A stretch of 64,000 nucleotides of DNA from positions 75,495-139,494 of the forward strand of contig JBLYPV010000001.1 in assembly GCA_048538215.1 (NCBI GenBank). Reading direction: 5' to 3'. A model generated the notes under the pieces. It did not search any database, was not told the DNA's origin, and saw only the letters and a program-made list of their open reading frames with translations. The position numbers were made by a program, and so were the translations under genes. Positions 230-52,375 of this stretch are shown piece after piece. This DNA comes from Patescibacteria group bacterium. Lineage in GTDB: Bacteria; Patescibacteriota; Minisyncoccia; Phycocordibacterales; GCA-2747955. The number at the start of each line of letters is the position of its first letter. Position 1 is the stretch's first letter.

Positions 230-706
230 ATGAAAAATAAATACAATATGAGCATTATCGTCTTGCTCGTGTTTATTGCGGGGCTTATCTTGGGGTACTT
301 ATTTGCTAATAATAAGCTATATCCAGGGTATATGATGAACAGCTCACATATAGATCAAGGCTTGTATGATTATTCTCCTGTTGAGAACAAAAATGAAATT
401 GAATTTTCAATAGAGCAAGAAGATGAATACACATATGATGATTTGGTGGCCAATGATGGAGAGCTCCAGCATATGATGGATGAAATGATGTTGATTGGGC
501 GCGGTAAAGAGGGGCAGGCATATGAGGAGGCTTGGTTGCGGGGGATGATTGCACATCACTTGGGAGCAATCGAAATGTCTAAAACATTACTAGAGCACAC
601 AAAGCGACCAGAATTACAAGAATTAGCAAATAATACTATCAATAATCAGTCTACCGAAATATCCCAAATGAAGGCATGGCTTGGAGATTGGTATAACAAT
701 GATTAA
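230..706 (+). CDS. DUF305-family protein (copper-resistance-associated), N-terminal TM anchor
   Basis: Motifs EAWLRGMIAHHLGAIEMS typical of DUF305; N-terminal hydrophobic segment. Confidence 0.55.
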   Translation: MKNKYNMSIIVLLVFIAGLILGYLFANNKLYPGYMMNSSHIDQGLYDYSPVENKNEIEFSIEQEDEYTYDDLVANDGELQHMMDEMMLIGRGKEGQAYEEAWLRGMIAHHLGAIEMSKTLLEHTKRPELQELANNTINNQSTEISQMKAWLGDWYNND

Positions 707-707
707 T

Positions 708-1187
708 ATGAAGACAAGTATTAGTGTATTAGCAATCGCAGGAATCGCTCTCATCGCGACAATAGCAAGTGGGACTTTCTCTACAAAAACTATTTTAGAT
801 GACAATAAGGAGCAGGTAGCGGAAGCTGTAATTTATAAATCCCCGAGTTGTGGTTGTTGTGGCAAGTATGCAGCATATTTACGAGAGGAAGATTATGATA
901 TTACTATTGAGGGGAAAAGAGATATGCAAGCAATCAAAGAGCAATTCCTTATTCCTTATGAAGTAGAAAGCTGTCATACAATGAAGATAGCGGGGTATGT
1001 AGTGGAAGGACATATACCAGAGCTCGTGATCAAAAAGCTACTTTCAGAGAAGCCAGATATTGCAGGTATAGGTATGGCGGGAATGCCATCAGGCTCACCA
1101 GGAATGCCCGGAATTAAAAATGCTGATTTTATCATATATACCATTACTCACGATGGCAAGAGAGGTGAGGTATATATGACTATTTAA
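708..1187 (+). CDS. DUF411-family metal-binding protein with signal peptide
   Basis: CGCCGKY and ESCHTMK motifs, Met/Gly/Pro-rich GMAGMPSGSPGMPG tail; ATG at 708 directly follows the upstream stop (ORF track begins 681). Confidence 0.5.
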   Translation: MKTSISVLAIAGIALIATIASGTFSTKTILDDNKEQVAEAVIYKSPSCGCCGKYAAYLREEDYDITIEGKRDMQAIKEQFLIPYEVESCHTMKIAGYVVEGHIPELVIKKLLSEKPDIAGIGMAGMPSGSPGMPGIKNADFIIYTITHDGKRGEVYMTI

Positions 1188-1216
1188 TTGTTATTAATTG
1201 TTAATAGTAAATTGCT

Positions 1217-1600
1217 ATGAATTACGGATATAAAAAACAAGTAGGCGTGGCGTACGACGAGGCAATAGAGCGGGTGAAGATGGAATTAACAAAAGAAGGA
1301 TTTGGGGTATTGAGCGAGATAGATGTGCAAGCCACCCTCAAAAAGAAATTAGATGTTGATTACGATAAGTATATAATTCTTGGAGCTTGTAATCCTTCTT
1401 TTGCCCATCAAGCTCTTTTAAGTGAGCCAGATATTGGATTGTTACTACCTTGTAATGTTGTGGTTTATGAAAGAGATGGAGCAGTCTTTGTTTCTGCGAT
1501 ACGGCCACAGGTAGCTATGAGTGTGGTAGATAGTAATGGATTAGAATCTATCGCTCAAGAAGTGGAGAGTAAATTAATACGAGTGATTGATAATCTATAA
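1217..1600 (+). CDS. DUF302-domain protein
   Basis: Sequence pattern GVLSEIDVQATLKKKLDVDYDKYIILGACNP characteristic of DUF302. Confidence 0.55.
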   Translation: MNYGYKKQVGVAYDEAIERVKMELTKEGFGVLSEIDVQATLKKKLDVDYDKYIILGACNPSFAHQALLSEPDIGLLLPCNVVVYERDGAVFVSAIRPQVAMSVVDSNGLESIAQEVESKLIRVIDNL

Positions 1601-1609
1601 ATATATAGT

Positions 1610-3610
1610 ATGACAACAAAAGATACCAAGCATAAGCACCATGGTGGGATAGGGATGGGGCATGGCTCTGCAGATCAATATTTGAAGCGGTTTTGGATTG
1701 TCACCTTTTTGCTTATCCCTCTTATATTTGCCAATGAAGGGATAGTCCAATTTTTGGGAATACCAGTATTGCCATATGCAAAGTGGATTGGGTTTGGTAT
1801 CGCTACAATTATTTTTGGCTTTTCTCTTGTGTTTTTCGAGCACGCTCTGCATGAGATACGGGCACGTAAGTATGGAATGATGACCCTCGTATCTCTTGCA
1901 GTGGGGGCTGGCTATCTTTTTTCGGTAGCTTCTACTTTTATTCCTGCACTGGAGGTAGAATTTTATCTTGAAATATCATCACTTATATGGGTACTTTTGT
2001 TTGGGCATTATCTAGAAGCAAAATCGAGCAGTATCGCAGGAAATGCCCTACAAGAGGTGGCAAAATTATTGCCCAAAAAGGCTCATAGATTGATTGGTGA
2101 TAAAGAAGAGGATGTAGACACCGCTGAGCTAAGAGAGGGAGATAGGGTGCTTGTTAAGCCAGGTGAAAAGATTCCAGCCGACGGCGTGATAGAAGAAGGG
2201 CGAGCTTTTACAGATGAATCGCATATTAGTGGTGAATCAATTCCAGTAGAAAAGAAAGTGGGCGATAGCGTCATTGCAGGTGCAATATGCTTGGATGGAT
2301 CTCTCACTATTGTTCTTTCTCGAGTCGGTGAGGATTCTACTATAGGGCAAATTCAAAATCTTATAGTACAAGCCCAAGCAACAAAGCCTCGTTCTCAAAA
2401 AATTGCAGATAAAGCTTCTGCTGTGCTTACGCTTGTGGCGGGGATTACTGCACTTCTTACTATCCTGGTATGGTCGGTCTTTTTAGGCGAATCATTTGTA
2501 TTTGCAATCACTCTCGGTATTACTGTCCTGGTAATTGCCTGCCCGCATGCGCTCGGCTTGGCTATTCCTACAGTCACCACTATTACCACATCCTTAGCGA
2601 TAAAAAATGGTGTCTTTATTAAGGATCTTTCAAAAATAGAGCTAATAAAAAAAGCTGATTATATTGTGTTTGATAAAACAGGTACTCTCACGGAGGGTAC
2701 ATTTGCTGTAAGAGATATAATTTCAATTGCTCATATTTCTGTAGATGAATTGATGGCTATTGCTACTTCTATAGAGAAACATTCTTCCCACATTATTGGG
2801 CAGGCGATCGTAAAGTATGCCCAAGAGCGGAAGATACATCATAAAGAAGCAAGAGAAGTGCAAAATATTGCAGGAAAAGGTATTACTGCAAAAATTGATG
2901 GGGTGAGGTATGCAGCTGGTAATCGTGCTCTTATGTATGAGCTAGATATTGCAAGTGAAGAAGCTGAGCAAAGAGCAGACAAGCTTGCCAAGCGTGGAGA
3001 AACGGTGATTTATCTTGCAGATGAAGAAAAAGTGATTGGTATCGTGGCTCTTGCCGATAGTATCAAAGCTTCGTCATACGAAGCGGTGCGGGAGCTCCAT
3101 AGCTTGGGAATACAGGTGGCTATGCTTACAGGTGATACTAAACAAGTAGCTCAAGGAGTAGCAGATGAGCTTGGGATAGATAGCTACTTTGCAGAGGTGT
3201 TGCCAGAAGATAAGTATACTCATATCAAAAAGCTTCAAGAGGAGGGAAACACGGTACTTATGGTGGGTGATGGGGTAAACGATGCTCCTGCGCTCACCCA
3301 AGCAGATGTAGGTATTGCAATTGGCGCAGGTACTGATGTGGCAGTGGAAGCAGGAGATGTAATTTTGACACGAAATAATCCACTTGATGTTGTACGCCTA
3401 GTCAAGCTTTCTCGGGCAGTCTATATCAAGATGATTCAAAATTTGGCTTGGGCATTGGGATACAATATTATTGCTATTCCAGCTGCTGCTGGTGTCTTTG
3501 CCTTTTGGGGATTCTTTTTACGCCCTGAAGTAGGGGCGCTTCTTATGAGTCTCTCGACCGTCATTGTGGTCATCAATGCTATGACACTCAAGCGAATTAA
3601 ATTATCATAA
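1610..3610 (+). CDS. copA: Copper-translocating P1B-type ATPase
   Basis: CPH metal-binding TM motif (IACPHALGLA), DKTGTLT phosphorylation site, GDGVNDAPAL hinge; His-rich N-terminus (HKHHGGIGMGHG) instead of a CxxC HMA domain. Confidence 0.85.
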   Translation: MTTKDTKHKHHGGIGMGHGSADQYLKRFWIVTFLLIPLIFANEGIVQFLGIPVLPYAKWIGFGIATIIFGFSLVFFEHALHEIRARKYGMMTLVSLAVGAGYLFSVASTFIPALEVEFYLEISSLIWVLLFGHYLEAKSSSIAGNALQEVAKLLPKKAHRLIGDKEEDVDTAELREGDRVLVKPGEKIPADGVIEEGRAFTDESHISGESIPVEKKVGDSVIAGAICLDGSLTIVLSRVGEDSTIGQIQNLIVQAQATKPRSQKIADKASAVLTLVAGITALLTILVWSVFLGESFVFAITLGITVLVIACPHALGLAIPTVTTITTSLAIKNGVFIKDLSKIELIKKADYIVFDKTGTLTEGTFAVRDIISIAHISVDELMAIATSIEKHSSHIIGQAIVKYAQERKIHHKEAREVQNIAGKGITAKIDGVRYAAGNRALMYELDIASEEAEQRADKLAKRGETVIYLADEEKVIGIVALADSIKASSYEAVRELHSLGIQVAMLTGDTKQVAQGVADELGIDSYFAEVLPEDKYTHIKKLQEEGNTVLMVGDGVNDAPALTQADVGIAIGAGTDVAVEAGDVILTRNNPLDVVRLVKLSRAVYIKMIQNLAWALGYNIIAIPAAAGVFAFWGFFLRPEVGALLMSLSTVIVVINAMTLKRIKLS

Positions 3611-3617
3611 TAGCTAA

Positions 3618-4208
3618 TTATAAATTATCTCGATTTCTTAATTTTCTATAGCGAAAGCAATCAGTAGTGTGATCGTGTACCATACCAACAGCCTGCATAT
3701 ACGAATACATAATAGTGGGCCCCACAAAGCTGAAGCCATGTTTTTTTAAATCTTTGCTAATTCTTTGTGATAATTCGGTCTGGGCTGGCACTTCTTCTGC
3801 ACTTTGCCAAGTATTATAGATAGGAGATCCACCAACAAAGCTCCATAGATAATCACTAAAACTACCGTATCCTTCTTGTATATTAAGAAAAGCTTGGGCA
3901 TTAGTGATAGCTGAATTAATTTTGCGTGCATTACGAATAATATTCTTATTGCTCATAAGCTGGGCGATCTTTTGTTTATCATATTTTGCTATTTTGTGTG
4001 GGTCAAAATTATCAAATGCTTGTCGGTAAGCTTCTCGTTTCCCGAGAACGGTGCGCCAGGATAATCCAGCTTGAGCTCCTTCAAGGATAAGAAGCTCAAA
4101 AAGTAAGGTATCGCTATCTGTGGGTACGCCCCATTGAGTGTCGTGATACTCGCACATAACAGCATCTTCTTCGCTGGCCCAGGCACATCGAATACTTTGA
4201 TCTTTCAT
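3618..4208 (-). CDS. tag: DNA-3-methyladenine glycosylase I
   Basis: CAWAS...YHDTQWGVP...LLFELLILEGAQAGLSW signature of Tag. Confidence 0.85.
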   Translation of the reverse strand: MKDQSIRCAWASEEDAVMCEYHDTQWGVPTDSDTLLFELLILEGAQAGLSWRTVLGKREAYRQAFDNFDPHKIAKYDKQKIAQLMSNKNIIRNARKINSAITNAQAFLNIQEGYGSFSDYLWSFVGGSPIYNTWQSAEEVPAQTELSQRISKDLKKHGFSFVGPTIMYSYMQAVGMVHDHTTDCFRYRKLRNRDNL

Positions 4209-4326
4209 ATATTAATTATCATACAACACCGATAAGGAGAGTCTATAGATTGAAAAAATATATATTTGTAGTATAGTTTTTGTGAAGGGTAATTGCTAAT
4301 TTTGGTATATACAAGGAGGGATCGAG

Positions 4327-4653
4327 ATGACTTATATCCAGCAGGTGCGAGCGCGCTTGATTATCACTTTTGAGCCTCAGGGCTCGAAGAGTGATGCGGG
4401 AGCCCTTTATGCTCACGGAGGATATGAAAAAAGTGGGGCAACCGTGCCTCTCAAGAGACAGGGTGATAGGCTCACCCTTTACTTCGGAGAGCTCAAGGGA
4501 GAGCCGATCAACATCACCTTCGATGTCCTCGAAGTCGATAATGATTTTGGCTACTATGCTTATCTCCTACACTGTAGAATGCTCGAGGGAGCCAGGCTGG
4601 CTCTTCACAGGAATTTCAAGGCGTGTGGATTTGAGCGAGTAGAAAATTCCTAG
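4327..4653 (+). CDS. Hypothetical protein (GC-rich ORFan, classical SD AAGGAGGG upstream)
   Basis: 108 aa ORF with markedly higher GC than neighbours, SD 8 nt upstream, strong terminator downstream; no recognisable motif. Confidence 0.4.
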   Translation: MTYIQQVRARLIITFEPQGSKSDAGALYAHGGYEKSGATVPLKRQGDRLTLYFGELKGEPINITFDVLEVDNDFGYYAYLLHCRMLEGARLALHRNFKACGFERVENS

Positions 4654-4685
4654 TTTAGACTAGGAGTAGCCCTAAAAAATGACGG

Positions 4686-4717
4686 GCGCCCACAGATGAT
4701 GTGGGCGCTTTTTCTTT
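4686..4717 (+). terminator. Rho-independent terminator (GCGCCCAC-loop-GTGGGCGC + T-run)
   Basis: 8 bp GC stem, 7 nt loop, followed by TTTTTCTTT. Confidence 0.7.
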
Positions 4718-4780
4718 GGCTACTAGCGCATAAAGGCTAGAGGGTCTAAGCATTCGAAGAAAGTGGGGGATAAGTGGGTA

Positions 4781-4809
4781 TTGACAGTGAACATTCGTTC
4801 ACCTATACT
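4781..4809 (+). promoter_or_regulatory. lexA promoter: -35 TTGACA, 17 nt spacer containing LexA/Cheo box GTGAACATTCGTTCAC (4787..4802), -10 TATACT
   Basis: Perfect palindrome GAAC-N4-GTTC between consensus -35 and -10 immediately upstream of lexA. Confidence 0.7.
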
Positions 4810-4833
4810 ACTACTATTCATTACTATATAAAT

Positions 4834-5397
4834 ATGGAAGAAAAAGCACAAATCATTCAATCATTTTATAAGCACAATAGGCGTATGCCAAGCTATGCAG
4901 AAATTTGTGAGCTCTTTGGCTATAAGAGCAAAAATGCTGCTGCCAAAATGGTACAAAAGCTTCAGCGATATGGTGTCTTAGAAAAAGATCCTACTGGTCG
5001 GCTCATTCCAAGTTTTAATCCTAGCTCTCTACGCTTACTTGGATATGTGGAAGCAGGCTTCCCATCGCCTGTAGAAGAGCAGGAGCTTGATACTATGACT
5101 CTCGATGATTGGCTTGTAAATGATGCTCTCGCTACATACATTCTCCGAGTCAAGGGAGATTCTATGATAGATGCCTCGATTGCTAATGGAGATTATATAC
5201 TTGTTGAGCGTACCCAGAATGTGCGTGTAGGTGATATTGTAGTGGCCTGTATTGATGGCGAATGGACGCTCAAATATCTTCGAGAAAAGAATGGTGCCCG
5301 CTATCTTGAGGCAGCTAATAGTGAATATGATGATATGTATCCACAAGAATCATTAGAAATTGAAGCTCGGGTAATTTCAGTCATTCGCAAGTATTAG
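4834..5397 (+). CDS. lexA: LexA repressor (S24 peptidase)
   Basis: N-terminal winged HTH, Ala-Gly cleavage region, C-terminal S24 catalytic region with Ser (GDSM) and conserved Lys; start taken at MEEKAQ rather than the upstream ATG. Confidence 0.85.
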   Translation: MEEKAQIIQSFYKHNRRMPSYAEICELFGYKSKNAAAKMVQKLQRYGVLEKDPTGRLIPSFNPSSLRLLGYVEAGFPSPVEEQELDTMTLDDWLVNDALATYILRVKGDSMIDASIANGDYILVERTQNVRVGDIVVACIDGEWTLKYLREKNGARYLEAANSEYDDMYPQESLEIEARVISVIRKY

Positions 5398-5464
5398 ATG
5401 AGGGGAAAGTATGATCATACAAGATGTAAAAGCCAGGCTTATATAGCAATAGCACATTAGATAT

Positions 5465-6745
5465 ATGAATAAAATAATTTTCCATATAGATGGGGATGCC
5501 TTTTTTGCATCCTGTGAGCAATCTACCAGGCTTGATTTGCGAGGCCGGGCGATTGCTGTGGGGCGTGAGCGGGGGGTGGCTACAGCATTTTCTTATGAAG
5601 CAAAAGCCATGGGGATTACTCGAGGGATGAGCGCTACAGAAATTGCTCGTGATTTTCCCAGCGTACTATTTATTTCTTCTGATTATCGCAAGTACGGCCT
5701 ATTTTCTACTCGAATGAATTGCATTACAAGGAAATATACAGAATTGATAGAACAGACCAGTATTGATGAGTGCTATGCAGATATGTCGGCAGTCGTTGTG
5801 GATACAGAGAAAGCCAAGGAGATAGCACTTAAGCTACAAAATGAGCTCTCTGTTAAATTAGGGCTTACTTTTTCGATTGGAATTGGTCCGAATAAAACAA
5901 TTGCAAAAATTGCCTCCAGTATGAATAAGCCACGAGGTATTACTCTCTTATTTCCCGATACCTTTGAGACAAATTTATATAATCTTAGCATTGATAAAGT
6001 AAGCGGGATTGGCCCCCAAAGCGCTATCAAATTTCATACAAAAAATATATATACTATTGGCCAATTTGTGGGGTGCAATGCAGTATGGGTGTATGAACAT
6101 TTTGCTAAGCCATTTGTGGAATTACATCGAGAGTTGCGAGGCCATTTTATACGAGAGCTTGAGCTTCTTCCCACAATACCTAAAAGTATTAGTAAGATCC
6201 GTGCCTTTAGTCCAGCCACTTCTTCTCAAGATATTTTGTATTCAGAATTTGTTCGTAATGCTGAGATAGTGGCGAGTAAATTATCGCACCTGAAATTGGA
6301 GGCAAAGCTTGTGGTATTTTCTATGAAGTGTGTAGATGGTACTCGTAGTAAACAAGAGGTACGCGCCGAATATCCCATTACAAGCTCATCTGACATTGTG
6401 GTGCATCTGAAACATATATTTAATCAATTATATGATAAGGATAAGCAATACCGATCTACTTCTGTAGCAGTATACAAACTAGGACCATTTGGGGCACAGC
6501 AATCATTGTTCACTAATAGTCGATCGGAGAGATATACACGAGAACGTATTGGTGATTTGCTTGCTGGTCTTACTAATCGTTTTGGTAAAGGGGCTGTAAG
6601 CTCGGCTAGTAGTATGGTAGCTCAAGCTCGTACGATACCGACAAGTGGGAGGAATAGTACGCCAACATCACAAAGAGGTACGCCACTTATTACAAATAAG
6701 GAAAATGGCCGAGCTCTTTATCTGCCATATCTAGGAAGAATCTGA
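5465..6745 (+). CDS. dinB: Y-family DNA polymerase (DinB/Pol IV-like)
   Basis: MNKIIFHIDGDAFFASCEQ... IDECYADM catalytic motifs of the UmuC/DinB family; immediately downstream of lexA. Confidence 0.8.
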   Translation: MNKIIFHIDGDAFFASCEQSTRLDLRGRAIAVGRERGVATAFSYEAKAMGITRGMSATEIARDFPSVLFISSDYRKYGLFSTRMNCITRKYTELIEQTSIDECYADMSAVVVDTEKAKEIALKLQNELSVKLGLTFSIGIGPNKTIAKIASSMNKPRGITLLFPDTFETNLYNLSIDKVSGIGPQSAIKFHTKNIYTIGQFVGCNAVWVYEHFAKPFVELHRELRGHFIRELELLPTIPKSISKIRAFSPATSSQDILYSEFVRNAEIVASKLSHLKLEAKLVVFSMKCVDGTRSKQEVRAEYPITSSSDIVVHLKHIFNQLYDKDKQYRSTSVAVYKLGPFGAQQSLFTNSRSERYTRERIGDLLAGLTNRFGKGAVSSASSMVAQARTIPTSGRNSTPTSQRGTPLITNKENGRALYLPYLGRI

Positions 6746-6758
6746 TACAATAATCGGT

Positions 6759-7295
6759 ATGCATATCCGATCTCTTGTATCTCTGCGCGCTATTCTCTTG
6801 GCCATTACTACAGCACTTTTGGTATTTTTTGTTTTATTAAGTATCGGCTTATATCAACACATATGGATTATTATAGTGAGTGATATTTTTAGTGGAAGTA
6901 CCGCGTTGTATGCGATCTTATTACTTTATCTAAATCCAGCAAATAATCTCACTCTAGCTTCTCTTTTTGCACTAAGCACGGTGGCTCTTCTCTCTGCCAT
7001 ACAAGCGCTCTTGCTGTATTACATATATCGTGTGCGTAAAGAAAAGATGCCTATCACAAAAAGTATGGGGAAGAGGGGGATTATTCCCACCCTCCTAGTG
7101 GGGCTTGGTATGGGATGCTCTGCTTGTGGCTCGGTGGTGATCCTTTCTGTCCTTTCTGTTTTTGGTGTAAGTGTGGGAGTGGCTACTAGCACTTGGCTTA
7201 CCTATCTTTTATTATTTAGTGCTATCCTCATTTTAAGCTATTCTAATTATCGCTTGTATCAACAAAGCAAACATCCTTTGGCTTGCCCTATTTAA
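6759..7295 (+). CDS. Integral membrane protein with membrane-proximal CxxC (GMGCSACGS)
   Basis: 4-5 predicted TM helices; Cys pair near a TM boundary; no family assignment. Confidence 0.4.
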   Translation: MHIRSLVSLRAILLAITTALLVFFVLLSIGLYQHIWIIIVSDIFSGSTALYAILLLYLNPANNLTLASLFALSTVALLSAIQALLLYYIYRVRKEKMPITKSMGKRGIIPTLLVGLGMGCSACGSVVILSVLSVFGVSVGVATSTWLTYLLLFSAILILSYSNYRLYQQSKHPLACPI

Positions 7296-9559: not shown

Positions 9560-9892
9560 ATGGAAAAATTTGCAGTAATTAAGACAGGAGGTAAGCAGTA
9601 TCGGGTACAGGAGGGAGATATGCTCAAGGTAGAGCTACTTGGTGGCATTACTACTGAGCACGAAGCAGGGGAGAAAATGGTATTCGATGAAGTGCTTCTT
9701 ATTGATGATGGATCAAATATTAAGGTGGGGACACCCATTCTCGATGGTGCTCAAGTAGAAGCAGAATTTGTCGATCGAGTGAAAGGCAAGAAGCTTCGTA
9801 TTCAAAAATTTAAATCTAAATCAAATTACGACAAGGTGATAGGCCATCGACAGAAGTTTGACGAAATAAAAATTACTAAAATTGTTGATTAA
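9560..9892 (+). CDS. rplU: 50S ribosomal protein L21
   Basis: MEKFAVIKTGGKQYRVQEGD... canonical L21 N-terminus. Confidence 0.85.
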   Translation: MEKFAVIKTGGKQYRVQEGDMLKVELLGGITTEHEAGEKMVFDEVLLIDDGSNIKVGTPILDGAQVEAEFVDRVKGKKLRIQKFKSKSNYDKVIGHRQKFDEIKITKIVD

Positions 9893-48652: not shown

Positions 48653-49138
48653 TTGTATTGGGGAAAACAAAGCAATTGGTGGGAAGAAGAGGCAGGGTAT
48701 AATAGGGCAATGAATGATGCACACTACCTCAAGCTTGAAAAGCTTTTTGAGCTCACTACAGACGTTGCTAATACTAGAGATGAAAAAGATTATAAAAAGA
48801 AGCTCAAGGGAGTGCCGTCCAACACATTTGGTGATCAGCTTTGGTGTATTCTTGGCGCACGAGAATCTTACCTACGCGTACTGCAAACGGGAAATAGCTT
48901 TGTATTTAGCTGTAGTATTGACAACCGCGCCAATAAATTACAGATGATGAAATCTCTCTTTGAGTCGAGTAGAGCTATCCTTGATTGGCTCGAACAAAAT
49001 AATTTAGATAGCGCCACACTACCAATTATTCTTAATATTCTCGAACATGAAGCTCAGCATCACGGCCAGCTTATTCGCTATTTTTATGGTAATAGATGGA
49101 TTTTTCCTCAGTCTTGGAAAGATTATTACAGAGTGTAA
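48653..49138 (+). CDS. DinB_2/YfiT-like four-helix-bundle protein (metal-dependent hydrolase superfamily)
   Basis: His-containing helices incl. EHEAQHHGQL; start ambiguous (alternative Met at 48711). Confidence 0.45.
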   Translation: MYWGKQSNWWEEEAGYNRAMNDAHYLKLEKLFELTTDVANTRDEKDYKKKLKGVPSNTFGDQLWCILGARESYLRVLQTGNSFVFSCSIDNRANKLQMMKSLFESSRAILDWLEQNNLDSATLPIILNILEHEAQHHGQLIRYFYGNRWIFPQSWKDYYRV

Positions 49139-49440
49139 GAAGCCCCGAGGTACAGCTTTTAGTTTTGTTTGAGTGTCTTTATAACTTCACTTGAACTTGC
49201 TTTATCAAAAATTCCTAACTAGTAAAAGTCCTGCCACTGCCTTACTCCGCTCGGCAACCCCGAAAGAAAAAACACTCCTTGCATTTCTGATTTGCGCGCG
49301 CTCGATTTTTTCTGGTAAAGGAGGGGTGCTTTTTTCGGGGTTCTGCCCTCCAAGTATTCGGGCAGTGTGGCGGGGCTCCAATACGGACTCGGCAAAGCGA
49401 AAATCTTTTTTTCTGGAGGGAAGGATTTTTCGCTTTGACT

Positions 49441-49520
49441 TAGCTGATTTCTCGCCCGCAGGAGGGGTCTGGGGAGGAATGCGGGCGGGATTCGCCCTGT
49501 GGAAAAGTTGTTTGCGAATT
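49441..49520 (+). mobile_element. MITE-like repeat remnant, copy 1 (retains 30 nt core GGAGGGGTCTGGGGAGGAATGCGGGCGGGA and 3' inverted terminus AAGTTGTTTGCGAA)
   Basis: Core identical to 51971..52000; 3' flank is the reverse complement of the copy-2 5' flank. Confidence 0.55.
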
Positions 49521-49560
49521 AAAATAATGCTAGAATAAAAATCTCTTAAATTTCAATACT

Positions 49561-50253
49561 ATGGCTAACCCAAAACTAAGTGAATATGTTAAAACTTCGT
49601 TGGCGCAAGGTAAACCAAAGGAAGAAATATACAAAGAGCTTCTTGGACAGGGCTGGACTATTGAAGTTATCCAAGAAAGTTTTAACTCAATCGGAACAGA
49701 ACAAGAGAAAGAAGATGCCTCAAAAAGGACTATCCGCATAATTGTAACCATTGGTGCCGTTCTTGTGGGAGCTGGAATTTTCTCTTTTGTCGCCGCTAAT
49801 TGGCTCGAAATGACAAAACCGATCAAAATCGGAATTATTTTAATCTCAATGGTTGTGTCTTACGGCGCAGGATGGTATCTCAAAGAAAAGTCGGAACTTC
49901 AAAAAACTGGTGATGCGTTAATTTTACTCGCGTCGATAATTTATGGCGCAGGAATATTTTTAGTTGCGCAAATGTTCAATATCCGAGCCAATTGGCCTGA
50001 CGGTTTTATTCTATGGATGATAGGAACAATCGCCATGGCTTTTGCGGTTGAATCGTACCCGCTTTTTTACCTCGCTATTCCGCTTGGTATCATTGCGTTA
50101 ATCGGACATCCATTCGGAATTTTCACGGGCTTTGGATATAATTCATTCTTGCTTACTTCGTCATTTCTGCTTCTTGTTGCAACAATTATCACTTTTGCCA
50201 CCGGATGGATAGTCCGCAAGAAAATACCGGCGGAACTTAAAGAATTTTATTAA
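49561..50253 (+). CDS. DUF2157-like membrane protein (soluble N-domain plus 5 TM)
   Basis: Topology and genomic association with DUF4401-like and GDYXXLXY genes. Confidence 0.45.
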   Translation: MANPKLSEYVKTSLAQGKPKEEIYKELLGQGWTIEVIQESFNSIGTEQEKEDASKRTIRIIVTIGAVLVGAGIFSFVAANWLEMTKPIKIGIILISMVVSYGAGWYLKEKSELQKTGDALILLASIIYGAGIFLVAQMFNIRANWPDGFILWMIGTIAMAFAVESYPLFYLAIPLGIIALIGHPFGIFTGFGYNSFLLTSSFLLLVATIITFATGWIVRKKIPAELKEFY

Positions 50254-50259
50254 ACCATT

Positions 50260-51366
50260 ATGTTTATCTTTAGCATATTATCATTTCTTTTTTGGCCAAT
50301 AGTTATCATCGGACTCATCGTATTTTTTGCTCGACACAGAAAGAAAAGCGGACATCCAGCAACGGATAAAGAATGGTATCTGCAATTTGCGTTATCTAAA
50401 GAAGACGCGGTTAGTCAATTTTTCCTCCTCTTGTCCGTTTTCTTTCTCGGCGTAACATTACTTGCTTTCAATAAAGATTTGGGCGATCCGTTTTCATGGC
50501 GAACTATTTTGTTTATCACTTCGGCTCTTAGCTTAGTTAGCGCATACTACTTGAAAGCACTTTACTCGCTCACCTTTGGTTTAATCGCTATTATTGCGTG
50601 GTGGGGCGCACAGGCCGCCGAATGGATACAGAGTAAAGATATTACATCATCTGCAATCTTTGTTGGATTAGCTTTTGTGGCATTACTTTTTTATTTACTA
50701 GGACATCTCCATGAAAGAGAAATGAAGTGGAAGCGATTTGCTCTCATGTACTTGGTTTTTGGGATTACCTCAATCACTGGCGCTTTATTCTTCTTTTCTT
50801 CCAAGCCGGGCCTTTCTGTTCTTGGGGAAATGACAAAAGGAGTTTCATTTTTTGGCTCGTGGCAAATAACATTATCGTTGTTTATCTTTCTAGCATCTCT
50901 CGTTGGAGTGGCGTTATACACAGTCGCCAAAAAATTAGTTTCTCCTTTAGAATTTCTTGCCGTCCTTCTGCTCACACTTTTGTTTGGTGCAATTGCTTTA
51001 CTTCCACAACAAAGTATGTTTCTTCAAGCGGGCAACTCTTACAGCTTCTACTCCGGAGGTCAAGAATTATCTAGTAGCGGTGTCTTGTGGGCTATTATCT
51101 TTAATTTTGCAGTATTCTTTGAATTACTCGGTTTGATTTTTTCTGGATATCTTCGTAGAGAAACTTGGCTTATAAATTTAGGCGCACTTTTCTTATTCCT
51201 GCTCATTATTGTTAAATACTTTGATTGGTTCTTCACCTTCCTCGACAAAAGTATCTTCTTTGTTGGTGCAGGTATTCTACTTATTGCAGTGGGTTGGTTT
51301 ATGGAAAAAGGTAGACGAATGATGATTTCGAATATCAAAGCACAAACGCAACAAATTCCACAATAA
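50260..51366 (+). CDS. DUF4401-like polytopic membrane protein (about 11 TM)
   Basis: Highly hydrophobic 368 aa; conserved trio context. Confidence 0.45.
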   Translation: MFIFSILSFLFWPIVIIGLIVFFARHRKKSGHPATDKEWYLQFALSKEDAVSQFFLLLSVFFLGVTLLAFNKDLGDPFSWRTILFITSALSLVSAYYLKALYSLTFGLIAIIAWWGAQAAEWIQSKDITSSAIFVGLAFVALLFYLLGHLHEREMKWKRFALMYLVFGITSITGALFFFSSKPGLSVLGEMTKGVSFFGSWQITLSLFIFLASLVGVALYTVAKKLVSPLEFLAVLLLTLLFGAIALLPQQSMFLQAGNSYSFYSGGQELSSSGVLWAIIFNFAVFFELLGLIFSGYLRRETWLINLGALFLFLLIIVKYFDWFFTFLDKSIFFVGAGILLIAVGWFMEKGRRMMISNIKAQTQQIPQ

Positions 51367-51368
51367 TT

Positions 51369-51923
51369 ATGATGACGAAACAGACAAAATTTATTTTAGC
51401 GATAGCTCTGCAAGTGATAATTATTTTCGCTATCGTCATTTTCAAAATGTCCGTCCTGACTGGTGGCACAGATGTTTTGTTGAAAATTGCACCAGTTGAT
51501 CCTCGAGATATGTTACGAGGAGATTATGCCACTTTTCAATACGATATCTCCAATCTTGATTCATACATTTCAGGTGGACAACAAATCAGAAACGGCGACA
51601 CAGTTTATGTTGCCTTGAGACAAAGTGGAAAATATTATTTTGCGCAAAATGTTCAAAAAACTAAACCTACTGACGGAGGAATTTTCATCAAGGGCACGGT
51701 AGCGAGTGGCGGAGTAGATACACAATCAGATGTTTTTCAAAATCAAAATTCCGGTAATTCTCGTCTCCACGTTGTTTATGGTGTAGAAGATTACTTTATT
51801 CCGGAAGGAAAGGGTCAAGGGTTTAGTTTTTGGAACAAAGAGGCCGCGGCAAGAGTCGTGGTTGATGAGAACGGCAACGCCGTTCTCAAACAGCTTTATG
51901 TTGACGATAAACCCTGGCCTTAA
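51369..51923 (+). CDS. GDYXXLXY-domain protein
   Basis: N-terminal TM then RDMLRGDYATFQYDIS (GDYxx[LF]xY signature). Confidence 0.6.
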   Translation: MMTKQTKFILAIALQVIIIFAIVIFKMSVLTGGTDVLLKIAPVDPRDMLRGDYATFQYDISNLDSYISGGQQIRNGDTVYVALRQSGKYYFAQNVQKTKPTDGGIFIKGTVASGGVDTQSDVFQNQNSGNSRLHVVYGVEDYFIPEGKGQGFSFWNKEAAARVVVDENGNAVLKQLYVDDKPWP

Positions 51924-51929
51924 TTAGTT

Positions 51930-52000
51930 TTCGCAAACAACTTTGCCTCGGCTGATTCCCCGCTCACGAAGGAGGGGTCTGGGGAGGAATGCGGGCGGGA
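51930..52000 (+). mobile_element. MITE-like repeat remnant, copy 2 (retains 5' terminus TTCGCAAACAACTT and the 30 nt core)
   Basis: Exact 30 nt core; homologous but diverged stem flanks with partly compensatory changes. Confidence 0.55.
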
Positions 52001-52006
52001 AATCAG

Positions 52007-52049
52007 TGGGACGCGCTTCGCACGTCCCACGCTATGGGGTCTTCTGTAT
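52007..52049 (+). terminator. Hairpin GTGGGACG-loop-CGTCCCAC followed by T-run (terminator of the cassette)
   Basis: 8 bp GC stem; TCTTTTTTT 10 nt downstream. Confidence 0.5.
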
Positions 52050-52074
52050 CTTTTTTTATAAAACTGGAGCCACT

Positions 52075-52150
52075 TGTCAGATTCGAACTGACGACCTACG
52101 GTTTACAAAACCGTTGCTCTACCAACTGAGCTAAAGTGGCGTGCCGAGGG
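52075..52150 (-). tRNA. tRNA-Thr (anticodon TGT), CCA encoded
   Basis: Reverse complement GCCACTTTAGCTCAGTTGGTAGAGC...TTTGTAA...GTCAGTTCGAATCTGAC...AAGTGGCTCCA. Confidence 0.85.
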
Positions 52151-52151
52151 A

Positions 52152-52233
52152 GGGAATCGAACCCTCACTCCCGAAGGAACACGATTTTGAGTCGTGCGCG
52201 TCTACCAATTCCGCCACCTCGGCATTGTTATGG
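52152..52233 (-). tRNA. tRNA-Leu (anticodon CAA), type II
   Basis: Reverse complement GCCGAGGTGGCGGAATTGGTAGACGCG...CTCAAAA...long variable arm...GGGTTCGATTCCC; 1 nt from the adjacent tRNA-Thr. Confidence 0.85.
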
Positions 52234-52375
52234 CGGCACTGTGTAAGACTGAGACTCGTATTCCTTCGAATGCAGGTATTCTAGCAGAAGATTTTATTGG
52301 TGCAAGATAAAAATAGATATCAAATTTTGATTTTTGTAATTATAATCCTGGGTGGTAGTATAGCTATGTTTGTAT

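What the first reader, a model, noticed from the sequence alone, without database searches (positions are those of the whole stretch)
49441..52000. DUF2157 / DUF4401 / GDYXXLXY three-gene cassette bracketed by decayed MITE-like repeats next to a tRNA cluster
Identical 30 nt cores GGAGGGGTCTGGGGAGGAATGCGGGCGGGA lie at 49461..49490 and 51971..52000. Each core is the loop of a hairpin whose stems differ between copies with partly compensating changes. Copy 2 keeps a 5' terminus TTCGCAAACAACTT. Copy 1 keeps the inverse complement, AAGTTGTTTGCGAA, at its 3' end. This implies an ancestral element of about 110 nt with terminal inverted repeats. The two direct copies flank exactly three genes: a membrane protein, a polytopic membrane protein and a GDYATFQY-motif protein, a trio repeatedly co-encoded in bacteria with unknown function. 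The cassette uses noticeably more NCG codons than flanking genes and abuts tRNA-Thr/Leu/Pro. This pattern fits a small mobilisable island.
Basis: partly seen in the sequence, partly recalled or inferred. Interest (0 to 1): 0.7.

Follow-up and report, generated by a model that had tools for sequence, protein, structure and literature searches.

The report
Conserved hairpin caps bracketing swappable gene cassettes
The two identical 30-base repeats are the signature hairpin of a structured repeat element, apparently undescribed, that brackets small swappable gene cassettes in many ultra-small (CPR/Patescibacteria) bacteria, often beside a serine recombinase and a tRNA gene; the three-gene membrane operon here is one such cargo.

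Summary
In detail: the 30-nt core occurs exactly twice (49461-49490, 51971-52000). The two copies bracket a DUF2157 / distant-DUF4401 / GDYXXLXY operon next to tRNA-Thr.

Copy 1 is part of a complete 348-nt multi-hairpin element (49171-49518). Copy 2 is an eroded fragment.

A 21-mer from the core is exact in more than 119 loci from about 20 CPR lineages. There, two elements in inverted orientation cap cassettes of 1.3-6.4 kb. Cargo is hypervariable, usually led by an HTH gene and often defence-related. In 34 of 119 loci a large serine recombinase gene lies just outside one cap, and where that gene is complete a tRNA gene abuts its 3' end. Hairpin stems covary around an invariant G-rich mirror-repeat loop.

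The loop occurs in both orientations relative to the element, which can explain why the window's cores read as direct repeats.

The trio is foreign here:
- Homologues are 60-92% identical across phyla and sit in many contexts.
- It is absent from the syntenic site in the nearest relatives found.
- It has a deviant NCG codon bias.

The element matches nothing in Rfam, phage or plasmid collections, or the searchable literature.

The parts
49171..49518 (+). Complete left 'cap' element, long type, 348 nt. It fills most of the 422-nt gap between orf161 and the DUF2157 gene.
   Evidence: Aligns end to end with long-type copies in L018, L029, L038 and L039. nhmmer with the short-type profile matches 49380-49501 at E 2.5e-26. 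Landmarks located. No Rfam hit.
49171..49200 (+). Outer (5') end of the cap, GAGTGTCTTTATAACTTCACTTGAAC. It resembles a tRNA 3' end read in reverse (TGGAG...TTCGAAC).
   Evidence: In L208 the same module (hairpin X plus spacer) is followed by the cap end TGGAGTGTCTTTACGACTTCACTCGAACC. In the window it is followed by reversed tRNA-Thr, TGGAGCCACTTGTCAGATTCGAAC. The short-type cap end TTGGCGGTGTTTGTTGGACAAAGTTCGAAAC parallels real tRNA ends TTGGCGGAG...GGATTCGAAC after the same 'ext' repeat. The resemblance was judged by eye and not scored statistically.
49256..49342 (+). Long internal hairpin of the long-type cap. Arms are CCCCGAAAGAAAAAACACTCC and GGAGGGGTGCTTTTTTCGGGG.
   Evidence: Inverted repeat I2, 25-nt arms, 80% complementary. 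Conserved in L018, L029 and L038.
49391..49439 (+). Hairpin 1: stem GGCAAAGCGAAAATC / GATTTTTCGCTTTGAC. The loop here reads CTGGAGGG where the family has CTGGGG.
   Evidence: Stem covaries across the family: GGCAGGGCGAA, GGCGGGGCAA, GGCAAAGCGAAAATC, GGTTTTGCGAA. RNAalifold on 38 elements predicts it, with AU to GC exchange in 8 sequences.
49451..49490 (+). Hairpin 2, copy 1. 5' arm 49451-49460, 19-nt loop GGAGGGGTCTGGGGAGGAA 49461-49479, 3' arm 49480-49490.
   Evidence: Family covariation: 10 of 13 stem pairs show compensatory changes, score 0.201 against a shuffled mean of 0.084 (0 of 500 shuffles as high), and 0.119 or less in slid controls.
49501..49518 (+). Inner tail of the left cap, GGAAAAGTTGTTTGCGAA. 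It also supplies a -35-like TTGTTT (49508-49513). This lies 17 nt upstream of TGC-TAGAAT (49528-49536), ahead of the operon.
   Evidence: The tail is conserved ahead of the same operon in L212-215 (GAAAAGTTGTTTGCGG ... TGCTACAAT) and L120. The promoter reading is my inference from the sequence. The consensus scan flagged a different overlapping site, 49500-49528.
49561..50253 (+). Cargo gene 1: DUF2157 membrane protein, 230 aa.
   Evidence: PF09925, E 3.1e-36.
50260..51366 (+). Cargo gene 2: polytopic membrane protein, 368 aa, a distant DUF4401 relative.
   Evidence: No Pfam hit itself. 290 homologues at E<=0.001; the 120 listed are 52-92% identical. 9 of 22 homologues hit PF14351, best E 5.2e-6.
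51369..51923 (+). Cargo gene 3: GDYXXLXY protein, 184 aa.
   Evidence: PF14345, E 5.7e-32.
51930..51947 (-). Inverted copy of the cap tail, TTCGCAAACAACTTTGCC. It marks the inner end of the eroded right cap.
   Evidence: I5, 18 nt, 94% complementary to 49501-49518. The same tail(-) follows the operon in L120, L125, L207 and L210.
51948..52006 (.). Hairpin 2, copy 2 (remnant). Linker TCGGCTGATT, decayed 5' arm CCCCGCTCACGAA, loop 51971-51989, 3' arm 51990-52000, then AAATCAG. It can be read either as a + fragment or as a - cap whose loop is flipped.
   Evidence: D1, D7, I9; profile positions 105-161 only; worst-paired stem of the family. Loop flipping is documented in L071 and L125.
52007..52064 (+). 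Hairpin X (TGGGACGCGCTTCGCACGTCCCA) plus a 35-nt spacer that joins the remnant to the tRNA-Thr 3' end.
   Evidence: Near-identical module beside tRNA-Thr(CGU) and caps in L208 and L212-215. The - strand of 51928-52062 folds with z -4.1.
52065..52140 (-). tRNA-Thr(UGU). Its 3' end is the right boundary of the inserted block.
   Evidence: ARAGORN and Rfam. Relatives L127 and L128 have tsf, then tRNA-Thr(UGU), tRNA-Leu(CAA) and ParB without the block.

Best explanation
The 30-nt cores are the loop and 3' arm of 'hairpin 2' of a conserved, structured repeat element. The short type is about 220 nt and the long type about 350 nt. The element is widespread in CPR/Patescibacteria.

Family architecture. 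Two elements in inverted orientation act as caps around a small cassette of accessory genes. The outer end of each cap looks like a tRNA 3' end read backwards. In about a third of sampled loci a large serine recombinase gene sits just outside one cap, and a tRNA gene abuts its 3' end where the gene is complete.

The window's copy. It is a recombinase-less member of about 2.9 kb (49171-52064) lying against the 3' end of tRNA-Thr(UGU). It has a full left cap. Its cargo is the DUF2157 / DUF4401-like / GDYXXLXY operon, whose promoter appears to straddle the cap's inner tail. Its right cap is eroded to an 18-nt inverted tail plus hairpin 2. The hairpin stem is a palindrome and its loop can sit in either orientation. 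A right-hand hairpin with a flipped loop therefore reads as a direct repeat of the left one.

Likely mechanism (inferred). The block arrived by site-specific integration at a tRNA 3' end, catalysed by a family recombinase supplied in trans. Cassettes are exchanged by recombination inside the conserved caps, with hairpin 2 as the usual breakpoint. The window's copy has probably lost the ability to move.

Shown: family membership, architecture, stem covariation, cargo turnover, cross-phylum spread of the trio, its absence from syntenic relatives, and the codon bias.

Inferred: which enzyme moves the block, where the strands cross over, and that the tRNA-like ends are attachment half-sites.
For: Distribution.
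- The 21-mer GGAGGGGTCTGGGGAGGAATG is exact in more than 119 stretches of species-representative genomes.
- Nearly all are CPR. They carry about 19 named candidate phyla, from Saccharibacteria to Levyibacteria.

Extent of the element.
- Conservation runs about 140 nt (short type) or about 290 nt (long type) upstream of the core and about 45 nt downstream.
- The 5' boundary is sharp.

Pairing.
- Of 27 two-hit loci, 25 are convergent, 2 divergent and 0 direct.
- With profile searches, 65 elements are paired against 23 unpaired among the informative cases. Median cargo is 1.95 kb.

Cargo.
- 19 of 25 cassettes start with a homologous 65-72-aa HTH_3 gene. The rest of each cassette is almost all unique.
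- Cargo includes type II and III R-M, ThsB-TIR with 8xMP, DUF3800, an ART domain, HNH, methyltransferases and a glycosyltransferase.

Recombinase.
- It has Resolvase and Recombinase domains and appears in 34 of 119 loci.
- 20 of 101 cap outer ends with room have its start codon within 700 nt, and all 20 are divergent.
- In the ten or so pairs where both genes could be placed, the HTH gene lay at the recombinase-proximal end (coordinates).
- Its N-terminal 128-139 residues are 96% identical between L036 and both L008 and L070, and the three loci carry unrelated cargo.
- The same 'ext' repeat is followed by real tRNA 3' ends at the gene's 3' side and by the cap 5' end at its 5' side.

Structure.
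- Hairpin 2: 10 of 13 pairs are compensatory, and 0 of 500 shuffles reach the observed score.
- Hairpins 1 and 2 are both recovered by RNAalifold.
- G.T outnumbers A.C by 31 to 7 on the G-loop strand.
- The loop is flipped relative to the element body in L071 (both caps) and L125.
- Upstream and downstream subtypes reassort across hairpin 2. T(-)-hairpin 2-T(+) junctions occur between adjacent cassettes.

The trio as cargo.
- A cap(+) lies upstream in L212-215, with the same tail and promoter region as the window. A cap(-) lies downstream in L125 and L207.
- The trio has different neighbours in about seven distinct genomic contexts. One is a genuine Nitrospirae contig with TamB and Omp85.

The window.
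- rpsB-tsf ... tRNA-Thr(UGU)-tRNA-Leu(CAA)-ParB is syntenic in L127 and L128, without orf161, the cap or the trio.
- The NCG bias is confirmed.
Against: - No recombinase is present in the 64-kb window. No excised, circular or empty-site form was observed anywhere.
- The nearest syntenic relatives are distant (Tsf 61-62% identical), so the insertion could be old.
- Only about 20% of cap ends and 34 of 119 loci have the recombinase. Only 8 of 154 elements lie within 300 nt of a tRNA. The recombinase and tRNA link is therefore not universal.
- The recombinase lies outside the capped cassette, which is unusual for a self-mobilising unit.
- Large serine recombinases normally need only sites of about 50 bp, so the caps' 220-350 nt of conserved structure is not explained by integration alone.
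- The tRNA-end resemblance of the cap termini was judged by eye.
- The family sample is biased, because it was collected with an exact loop 21-mer.
- The flipped-loop reading of copy 2 competes with a plain + orientation reading: 17 nt upstream, CTTTGCCTCGGCTGATT, match the canonical + linker.
Confidence: 0.6

Rival explanations
1. Attachment-site reading. A circular trio cassette carrying a hairpin-2-like site integrated by site-specific recombination into hairpin 2 of a solo cap. This would leave two directly repeated hybrid sites (attL and attR). On this view hairpin 2 is an integron-attC-like folded recombination site, and the direct repeats could still support excision.
For: - The two cores are direct and identical over 34 nt, with diverged flanks.
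- Copy 1's 5' arm pairs best with copy 2's 3' flank (I9, 17 nt, 94%).
- L092 also has two + hairpin-2 copies flanking an HTH cassette.
- Adjacent cassettes share a single hairpin 2 in L092 and L210/L211.
- Subtype mosaics break at hairpin 2.
- Stem covariation with a G.T bias on one strand suggests a folded single strand.
Against: - Copy 1 is contiguous with a canonical cap on both sides of the core: its 3' flank ATTCGCC...TTTGCGAA matches L029 and L089. It is therefore not a hybrid site.
- 25 of 27 pairs elsewhere are inverted, which cannot arise by simple integration.
- No integron-type tyrosine integrase was seen near the window.
- The 41 nt of hairpin 2 are the longest identical stretch, so ordinary homologous recombination would also break there.
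Confidence: 0.15
2. Two decayed direct copies of a ~110-nt MITE with terminal inverted repeats form a composite transposon. A cognate transposase encoded elsewhere moves the trio.
For: - The repeats and the 18-nt inverted termini are real.
- There is no mobility gene between them.
- MITE pairs are known to mobilise intervening DNA (own knowledge).
Against: - The element is 348 nt and its own ends are not inverted repeats.
- No target-site duplication appears in 15 of 16 pairs examined.
- No transposase lies in any of 25 cargos.
- The associated enzyme is a serine recombinase.
- Copy 2 covers only profile positions 105-161.
Confidence: 0.07
3. The caps act mainly as RNA. They would be a structured small RNA or untranslated-region element whose G-rich loops (GGAGG, GGA) bind the ribosome's anti-Shine-Dalgarno sequence or a CsrA-like protein. 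On this view, association with cassettes is secondary.
For: - Hairpins have covarying stems and invariant loops.
- G.T outnumbers A.C on one strand.
- Each element carries several GGA and GGAGG motifs in or next to loops.
Against:
- The loop is found flipped with the rest of the element intact.
- The cargo promoter lies downstream of the cap.
- Folding of the + strand is no better than shuffles in the window.
- No Rfam family matches.
- Near-identity across phylum-level lineages fits horizontal spread better than a housekeeping RNA.
Confidence: 0.1
4. A local tandem or segmental duplication, or a chance repeat, with no relation to mobility.
For: Only two copies occur in the 64-kb window.
Against: - 0 of 100 shuffles give any match.
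- The core is present in more than 119 loci of other genomes.
- Relatives lack the block.
Confidence: 0.02

Closest known systems
tRNA-linked integrative genomic islands (Islander-type islands; tycheposons of Prochlorococcus)
   Same: - A small block of accessory genes lies against the 3' end of a tRNA gene.
- The block is absent from relatives.
- Cargo is modular, and a site-specific recombinase sits at one end of autonomous copies.
- The distal end resembles a tRNA 3' fragment.
- The tycheposon comparison rests on the abstract seen (bioRxiv 10.1101/2020.12.28.424599) and on my own knowledge.
   Different: - Here the cargo is enclosed by 220-350-nt structured inverted caps conserved across phylum-level lineages.
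- The recombinase is a large serine recombinase lying outside the caps, and it is itself flanked by inverted copies of its own 3' end.
- Many copies, including this one, have no recombinase and are not next to a tRNA.
MITE-bracketed composite elements (integron mobilisation units, TIME-COMP) - own knowledge
   Same: Two copies of a non-coding repeat of a few hundred bp, in inverted orientation, flank cargo that has no mobility gene of its own.
   Different: - Each cap lacks its own terminal inverted repeats.
- There is no regular target-site duplication.
- No matching transposase is seen.
- The internal hairpins covary, as if structure rather than end sequence is selected.
Integron gene cassettes and attC sites - own knowledge
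   Same: - Short promoter-poor or single-operon cassettes of very diverse function.
- Cassette junctions formed by imperfect palindromes that fold as hairpins.
- Occasional arrays in which neighbouring cassettes share one hairpin.
- A recombinase gene beside the array.
   Different: - The recombinase is of the serine type, not the IntI tyrosine type.
- The usual arrangement is one cassette between inverted caps, not a direct array.
- The hairpin loop sequence is invariant, whereas attC centres vary.
- Cassettes usually carry their own HTH gene and promoter.
Staphylococcal / enterococcal cassette chromosomes (SCC; CcrAB large serine recombinases) - own knowledge; titles seen
   Same: Large serine recombinase plus highly variable cargo integrated at a fixed chromosomal site. 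Recombinase-less derivatives are common.
   Different: SCC elements are tens of kb and integrate in rlmH. Their ccr genes lie inside the element, and their boundaries are short repeats rather than long structured caps.
Gin/Cin/Pin-type invertible segments - own knowledge
   Same: A serine recombinase gene lies immediately outside a segment bounded by inverted repeats.
   Different: - Those repeats are about 26-34 bp, and the segment switches between two orientations.
- Here the cargo orientation relative to the recombinase was the same in all of the ten or so informative loci.
- The recombinase is of the large type.

Membership tests
MITE | Terminal inverted repeats at the two ends of each copy | tested here: not met
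   The window cap's ends, GAGTGTCTTTAT... and ...GTTGTTTGCGAA, are not complementary. The family consensus runs 5' GGCGGTGTTTG ... 3' ...TTCGGCGGCTA. The 18-nt inverted repeat links the left cap's tail to the right remnant (I5).
MITE | Short target-site duplication flanking each insertion | tested here: not met
   The outer flanks of 16 pairs were compared. Only L048 shows a direct duplication, of 21 nt.
MITE | Autonomous partner encoding a transposase between the same ends | tested here: not met
   The 80 cargo ORFs of 25 cassettes were clustered by BLASTP and 27 of them scanned with Pfam. No transposase was found. One rve gene lies beside, not inside, a trio copy (L209).
MITE | Many dispersed copies within one genome | not testable with these tools
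   Only 64 kb of this genome is available, with 2 hits. Several MAGs have hits on 2 or more contigs.
tRNA-linked integrative genomic island | One boundary at the 3' end of a tRNA or tmRNA gene | tested here: met
   The block ends at 52064 and the tRNA-Thr(UGU) 3' end is at 52065. For the family overall, only 8 of 154 elements lie within 300 nt of a tRNA.
tRNA-linked integrative genomic island | Integrase gene at one end | tested here: not met
   tblastn with the family recombinase finds nothing in the window. It is present in 34 of 119 related loci.
tRNA-linked integrative genomic island | Direct repeat of the tRNA 3' segment at the distal boundary | tested here: inconclusive
   49171-49200 and 52065-52090 both read, on the + strand, as TGGAG/GAG ... 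TTC(N)GAAC. The likeness is clearer in L208 and in short-type caps. It was not scored statistically.
tRNA-linked integrative genomic island | Absent from the same site in related genomes | tested here: met
   L127 and L128 have rpsB-tsf, then tRNA-Thr(UGU), tRNA-Leu(CAA) and ParB, with no trio, cap or orf161. The relatives are distant (Tsf 61-62% identical).
tRNA-linked integrative genomic island | Atypical composition or codon usage | tested here: met
   NCG/NCN ranks 1, 6 and 8 of 61. G+C itself is not deviant.
Integron cassette / attC | IntI-type tyrosine integrase with attI beside the array | tested here: not met
   Pfam scans of the ten ORFs scanned between 43.7 and 54.9 kb show none. The recombinase associated with the family has Resolvase and Recombinase domains. 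Related loci were not scanned systematically for IntI.
Integron cassette / attC | Cassettes in one orientation, separated by single imperfect-palindrome sites | tested here: inconclusive
   Such junctions are seen in L092 and L210/L211. However, 25 of 27 pairs are inverted caps around one cassette.
Any Rfam 15 RNA family | Covariance-model score at or near the gathering threshold | tested here: not met
   The window and 17 loci were scanned at gathering thresholds. Window 49100-52300 and L036 150-3050 were scanned at permissive E-values. Only tRNA, tmRNA and chance hits appeared.
Pfam DUF2157 (PF09925) | Profile score above the curated cutoff | tested here: met
   124.7 bits against a cutoff of 32.4.
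Pfam DUF4401 (PF14351) | Profile score above the curated cutoff | tested here: inconclusive
   The window protein gives no hit at E<=1. 9 of 22 close homologues hit, best E 5.2e-6. Precomputed PF14351 is recorded on 8 of the 120 listed homologues.
Pfam GDYXXLXY (PF14345) | Profile score above the curated cutoff | tested here: met
   111 bits against a cutoff of 27.

The most novel reading that the evidence does not exclude
CPR bacteria carry a lineage-wide cassette-exchange platform that has not been described. Accessory and anti-phage operons are packaged between structured hairpin caps. A dedicated large serine recombinase, anchored at tRNA genes, inserts or swaps them at folded hairpin sites. 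Hairpin 2, with its invariant G-rich mirror-repeat loop, would be the crossover site. This would be a serine-recombinase analogue of the integron, spreading cassettes across phylum-level boundaries and occasionally into other phyla.
Probability: 0.3. Interest if true: 0.85.

Novelty: new variant of a known kind. Interest (0 to 1): 0.7.

Why it matters
CPR/Patescibacteria have tiny genomes, few recognised mobile elements and little known about how they exchange genes. Here an exact 21-mer outside rRNA and tRNA is shared by about 20 candidate phyla. It marks cassettes rich in restriction-modification and other defence genes beside a serine recombinase. That points to a common gene-shuffling device for this large group.

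It would:
- explain why short cassette-sized contigs carrying these repeats break MAG assemblies and get mis-binned;
- give a sequence handle for finding accessory and defence cassettes in CPR metagenomes;
- offer compact recombinase and site pairs for testing.

For the window itself, it reclassifies an intergenic curiosity as the boundary of a horizontally acquired membrane-protein operon.

Tried and rejected
- **rRNA processing stems.** Inverted pairs 1.4-3.3 kb apart at contig ends suggested 16S or 23S flanks. Rfam found no rRNA in 17 loci.
- **Known RNA families.** Scans at gathering and permissive thresholds found none.
- **Phage or plasmid origin.** The 21-mer is absent from 2.9 M IMG/VR contigs. 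The cap has no BLAST hit in PLSDB or INPHARED.
- **Transposase-borne IS.** No transposase lies in any cargo.
- **Invertible switch.** Rejected because the HTH gene was at the recombinase-proximal end in all of the ten or so informative loci.
- **Exact look-up of the window's 368-aa protein.** It is not on record, so the source genome was not identified.
- **Close relatives for synteny.** The metagenome scan gave none closer than 62% Tsf identity.
- **Head-to-head cap junctions as putative excision joints.** None were found; the one regex hit was an unrelated terminator.
- **Extended-palindrome scan around hairpin 2.** The top three scores (L060, L049, L010) were discarded because they came from hits at contig ends. 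For L060 and L010 a slicing error was the cause.
- **Hairpin 2 stem versus the tRNA-Gly acceptor stem.** A resemblance in L120 did not hold in L125, so it was dropped as coincidence.
- **Literature.** Searches on the core sequence, CPR with inverted repeats or hairpins, Patescibacteria or Saccharibacteria with serine recombinase, and the three DUF names returned nothing relevant.
- **Function of the trio.** I did not attempt structure prediction of the three proteins. Their biochemical function remains unknown.

Full report
**1. The observation**

The 30-mer GGAGGGGTCTGGGGAGGAATGCGGGCGGGA occurs at 49461-49490 and 51971-52000, both on the + strand. It has no further match at up to 3 mismatches and none in 100 shuffles. 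The repeat extends to 34 nt at 97% identity, and with a 2-nt indel to about 58 nt (D1 and D7).

Between them lie three ORFs:
- 49561-50253, DUF2157, E 3e-36;
- 50260-51366, no Pfam hit;
- 51369-51923, GDYXXLXY, E 6e-32.

The middle protein is only a distant DUF4401 relative. 9 of 22 of its close homologues reach PF14351 (best E 5e-6), but it does not itself. tRNA-Thr(UGU) and tRNA-Leu(CAA) on the - strand and tRNA-Pro(GGG) on the + strand follow.

The NCG codon claim holds. The three genes rank 1, 6 and 8 of 61 window ORFs for NCG/NCN.

The claim of 'partly compensating' stems does not hold. The 3' arms are identical, and copy 2's 5' arm is the worst-paired of 66 distinct family variants.

**2. 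What the core belongs to**

Nearly all are CPR/Patescibacteria MAGs carrying about 19 named candidate phyla. A few contigs, mostly short, are binned elsewhere. One is a 472-kb Nitrospirae contig.

Aligning the flanks showed that the core is the loop and 3' arm of the second hairpin of a much larger element with a sharp 5' boundary:
- A short type of about 220 nt starts GGCGGTGTTTGTTGGACAAAGTTCGAAAC.
- A long type of about 350 nt starts TGGAGTGTCTTTA...

Window 49171-49518 is a complete long-type copy, colinear with L018, L029 and L038. Its landmarks were located. Copy 2 matches only profile positions 105-161, that is, hairpin 2 and a few flanking bases.

No Rfam family matches the window, 17 related loci or a canonical copy, even at permissive thresholds. 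The 21-mer is absent from IMG/VR. The cap has no BLAST match in PLSDB plasmids or INPHARED phages. Five literature searches found nothing on it.

**3. Structure**

RNAalifold on 38 non-redundant short-type copies recovers hairpins 1 and 2, with compensatory changes in 7 of 21 pairs. Median pairwise identity among these copies is 80%.

Across 66 distinct hairpin-2 variants, alternative stems surround the same loop. Examples are CCCGCCCGCA/TGCGGGCGGG, GGGCGGGGCGGCA/TGCCGCCCCGCCC, TCCGCGCGCA/TGCGCGCGGA and GGGCAGGGCGACA/TGTCGCCCTGCCC. Ten of 13 pairs show changes on both sides. The covariation score is 0.201, against 0.084 in shuffles (0 of 500 as high) and 0.119 or less in slid controls.

On the G-loop strand, G.T outnumbers A.C by 31 to 7 in the inner stem. 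This is a modest hint that this strand folds. The loop GGAGGGGTCTGGGGAGG is a perfect mirror repeat, seen directly in the sequence. All three family loops carry CTGGGG.

The sample was collected with an exact loop match, so loop invariance is partly by construction. Diverged loops do exist: GGGGGGTATGGGGGG in L125 and GAGAAGGGGCTGGGGAGG in L212.

**4. Architecture of the family**

Of 27 loci with two exact cores, 25 are convergent with the 5' ends outward, 2 are divergent and none is direct. With profile searches, 65 elements have an inverted partner and 23 informative ones do not. Cargo length is 1.3-6.4 kb, median 1.95 kb.

In 19 of 25 cassettes the first gene is a homologous 65-72-aa HTH_3 protein. 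Almost everything else is unique to its locus. Cargo includes:
- type II and type III restriction-modification;
- ThsB-TIR with 8xMP;
- DUF3800, an ART domain, an HNH nuclease, a SLOG domain;
- methyltransferases, a glycosyltransferase, ABC components and an aminotransferase.

No transposase lies inside any cassette. Upstream (hairpin 1) and downstream (tail) subtypes reassort, with hairpin 2 at the junction. Neighbouring cassettes can share one hairpin 2 (L092, L210/L211). Hairpin 2 is therefore the usual recombination breakpoint. Whether that reflects site-specific or homologous recombination is not settled, since it is also the longest identical stretch.

**5. The recombinase and tRNA link**

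A large serine recombinase with Resolvase and Recombinase domains is encoded in 34 of 119 loci. Where there is room to judge, 20 of 101 cap outer ends have its start codon within 700 nt. It is always divergent. In the ten or so pairs where both genes could be placed, the recombinase was at the HTH-proximal cap (coordinates).

Its N-terminal 128-139 residues are 96% identical between L036 (Nomurabacteria) and both L008 (Kaiserbacteria) and L070 (another Nomurabacteria MAG). The three loci carry unrelated cargo.

The gene is flanked by inverted copies of about 130 nt of its own 3' end ('ext'). In all five loci with a complete gene, the copy at the 3' end abuts a real tRNA 3' end (TTGGCGGAG...GGATTCGAAC). 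The upstream copy abuts the cap's 5' end (TTGGCGGTGTTTGTTGGACAAAGTTCGAAAC). The cap terminus thus resembles a reversed tRNA 3' end.

The long type shows the same logic. A hairpin-X-plus-spacer module is followed by the cap end TGGAGTGTCTTTACGACTTCACTCGAACC in L208, and by the reversed tRNA-Thr TGGAGCCACTTGTCAGATTCGAAC in the window. I take these tRNA-like ends to be attachment half-sites. That is inference.

Overall only 8 of 154 elements lie within 300 nt of a tRNA.

**6. Why the window's cores are direct**

In L071 both caps are canonical in every other respect, but the hairpin-2 loop is inverted relative to the element body. L125 shows the same. The stem is a palindrome, so a cap in - orientation with a flipped loop presents the same loop and 3' arm on the + strand as a normal + cap.

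The window's right end has the inverted tail (51930-51947), then hairpin 2, then AAATCAG. AAATCAG is the start of the linker in - orientation, as in L071. After that the homology ends in hairpin X. That fits a right cap truncated after hairpin 2 and carrying a flipped loop.

The 17 nt before its stem, CTTTGCCTCGGCTGATT, also match the + linker. The region is therefore a quasi-palindrome and a plain + fragment cannot be excluded. L092 offers a second case of two + hairpin-2 copies around an HTH cassette. This keeps the attL/attR-style rival alive.

Against that rival, copy 1 is canonical on both sides of the core, so it is not a hybrid site.

**7. The trio as cargo**

The 368-aa protein has 290 homologues at E<=0.001; the 120 listed are 52-92% identical. 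Many sit on contigs of 2.4-3.2 kb, which is the size of a cassette plus caps. The three genes stay together in every context fetched, but their neighbours differ:
- tRNA-Gly (L120, L125);
- SecA and a histidine kinase (L212-215);
- a MauE-like gene and RF-1 (L208);
- an rve transposase (L209);
- another HTH cassette (L210/L211);
- cas6 and glnD on a 331-kb Nitrospirae contig with TamB and Omp85, where the flanks are roughly 90-nt direct repeats of a different kind (L122).

In CPR copies a cap(+) lies upstream and a cap(-) or its remnant downstream. L212-215 share the window's tail and promoter-like junction: TTGTTT, 17 nt, then TGC-TAnAAT.

**8. Synteny**

The nearest Tsf relatives in the metagenome collection are only 61-62% identical. 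Both have rpsB-tsf, a short spacer, tRNA-Thr(UGU), tRNA-Leu(CAA) and ParB. Neither has orf161, a cap or the trio. The inserted block in the window therefore ends at the tRNA-Thr 3' end (52064/52065). On the family's logic it begins at the cap's outer end (49171). Whether orf161 came with it is open: its codon usage is ordinary and it has no Pfam hit.

**9. Verdict**

The repeat is real and non-random. It is not a decayed MITE pair. It is the hallmark hairpin of a CPR-wide family of structured caps that bracket exchangeable cassettes, often beside a large serine recombinase and a tRNA gene. The window holds a recombinase-less member with an eroded right cap, carrying a horizontally mobile membrane-protein operon of unknown function.

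What moves these units, and why 220-350 nt of conserved structure with an invariant G-rich mirror loop is needed, is not shown.

I rate it a new variant of a known kind (small integrative islands and cassette systems), with a real chance of being a distinct serine-recombinase cassette platform.

Noticed in passing
L071:2990-3200 and L071:4660-4860: A canonical inverted cap pair in which both hairpin-2 loops are inverted relative to the element body (C-rich on the element's own strand). The loop therefore exists in 'flip' and 'flop' states.
   Followed up: partly
L036:2835-4460 (also L019, L074, L078, L085): The large serine recombinase gene is flanked by inverted copies of about 130 nt of its own 3' coding end. 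One copy abuts a real tRNA 3' end and the other abuts the cap 5' end.
   Followed up: partly
L036:2966-4525 (also L019, L071, L074, L078, L085): In L036 the recombinase reads as two ORFs (358 + 145 aa). tblastn against L019, L071, L074, L078 and L085 gives the same broken pattern, with overlapping hits in two frames around residues 273-328. It could be a conserved frameshift, a real split, or recurrent assembly error.
   Followed up: no
L048:~300-6850: A whole capped unit (type III R-M plus DUF3800) is flanked by a 21-nt direct duplication, AAAAATCGCTACACTCTTTTT. None of the other 15 pairs examined shows such a duplication.
   Followed up: no
L122:7040-7130 and 9795-9880 (also L124 ends): In a Nitrospirae genome the same three-gene operon sits beside cas6. 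It is flanked by imperfect direct repeats of roughly 90 nt (GGTAAAAAAGCGCCTGTACCCAGACATACG...), unrelated to the CPR caps.
   Followed up: no
window 52007-52064; L208:4763-4820; L212:5040-5062: A hairpin (TGGGACGCGC...GCGTCCCA) recurs next to tRNA-Thr genes and caps; in the window and L208 it is followed by a 35-nt spacer. It is attached at three different positions relative to the cap: before its 5' end, fused to mid-cap, and fused to hairpin 2.
   Followed up: partly
window 52172-52193 and 52247-52268: A 22-nt inverted repeat, 82% complementary. One arm lies inside tRNA-Leu(CAA) and the other just upstream of that gene's 5' end.
   Followed up: no
window 48653-49138: orf161, just upstream of the cap, has no Pfam hit and no counterpart in the syntenic relatives L127 and L128.
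   Followed up: partly
L013:2027-2089 (Nitrospirae GWF2_44_13, 472-kb contig) and L119:6365-6589: A hairpin 2 plus tail fragment, without the rest of the cap, precedes the same cargo gene in a Nitrospirae contig and in a Paceibacterota contig. This suggests transfer of a cassette together with its inner cap part.
   Followed up: no
L002, L007, L097, L102 (about 70-135 nt downstream of the core); L008:730-790: At the HTH-proximal end, some cap subtypes carry an extra conserved hairpin module (...GTTGCCCTTGACCCACCCAACCCATTCGCGGGCAAC...CTCCCTAAAA) before the HTH promoter. The distal end carries a different one (GTGCCAGTTGAAAACTGGCGCGCCACC). The two caps are therefore not fully equivalent.
   Followed up: no
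record titles (e.g. L012, L015, L023, L035, L037, L061, L063, L079): Many short contigs carrying caps are binned into non-CPR MAGs (Bacteroidetes, Gammaproteobacteria, Bdellovibrionales, Planctomycetales). These are probably mis-binned cassette contigs that broke at the repeats.
   Followed up: no
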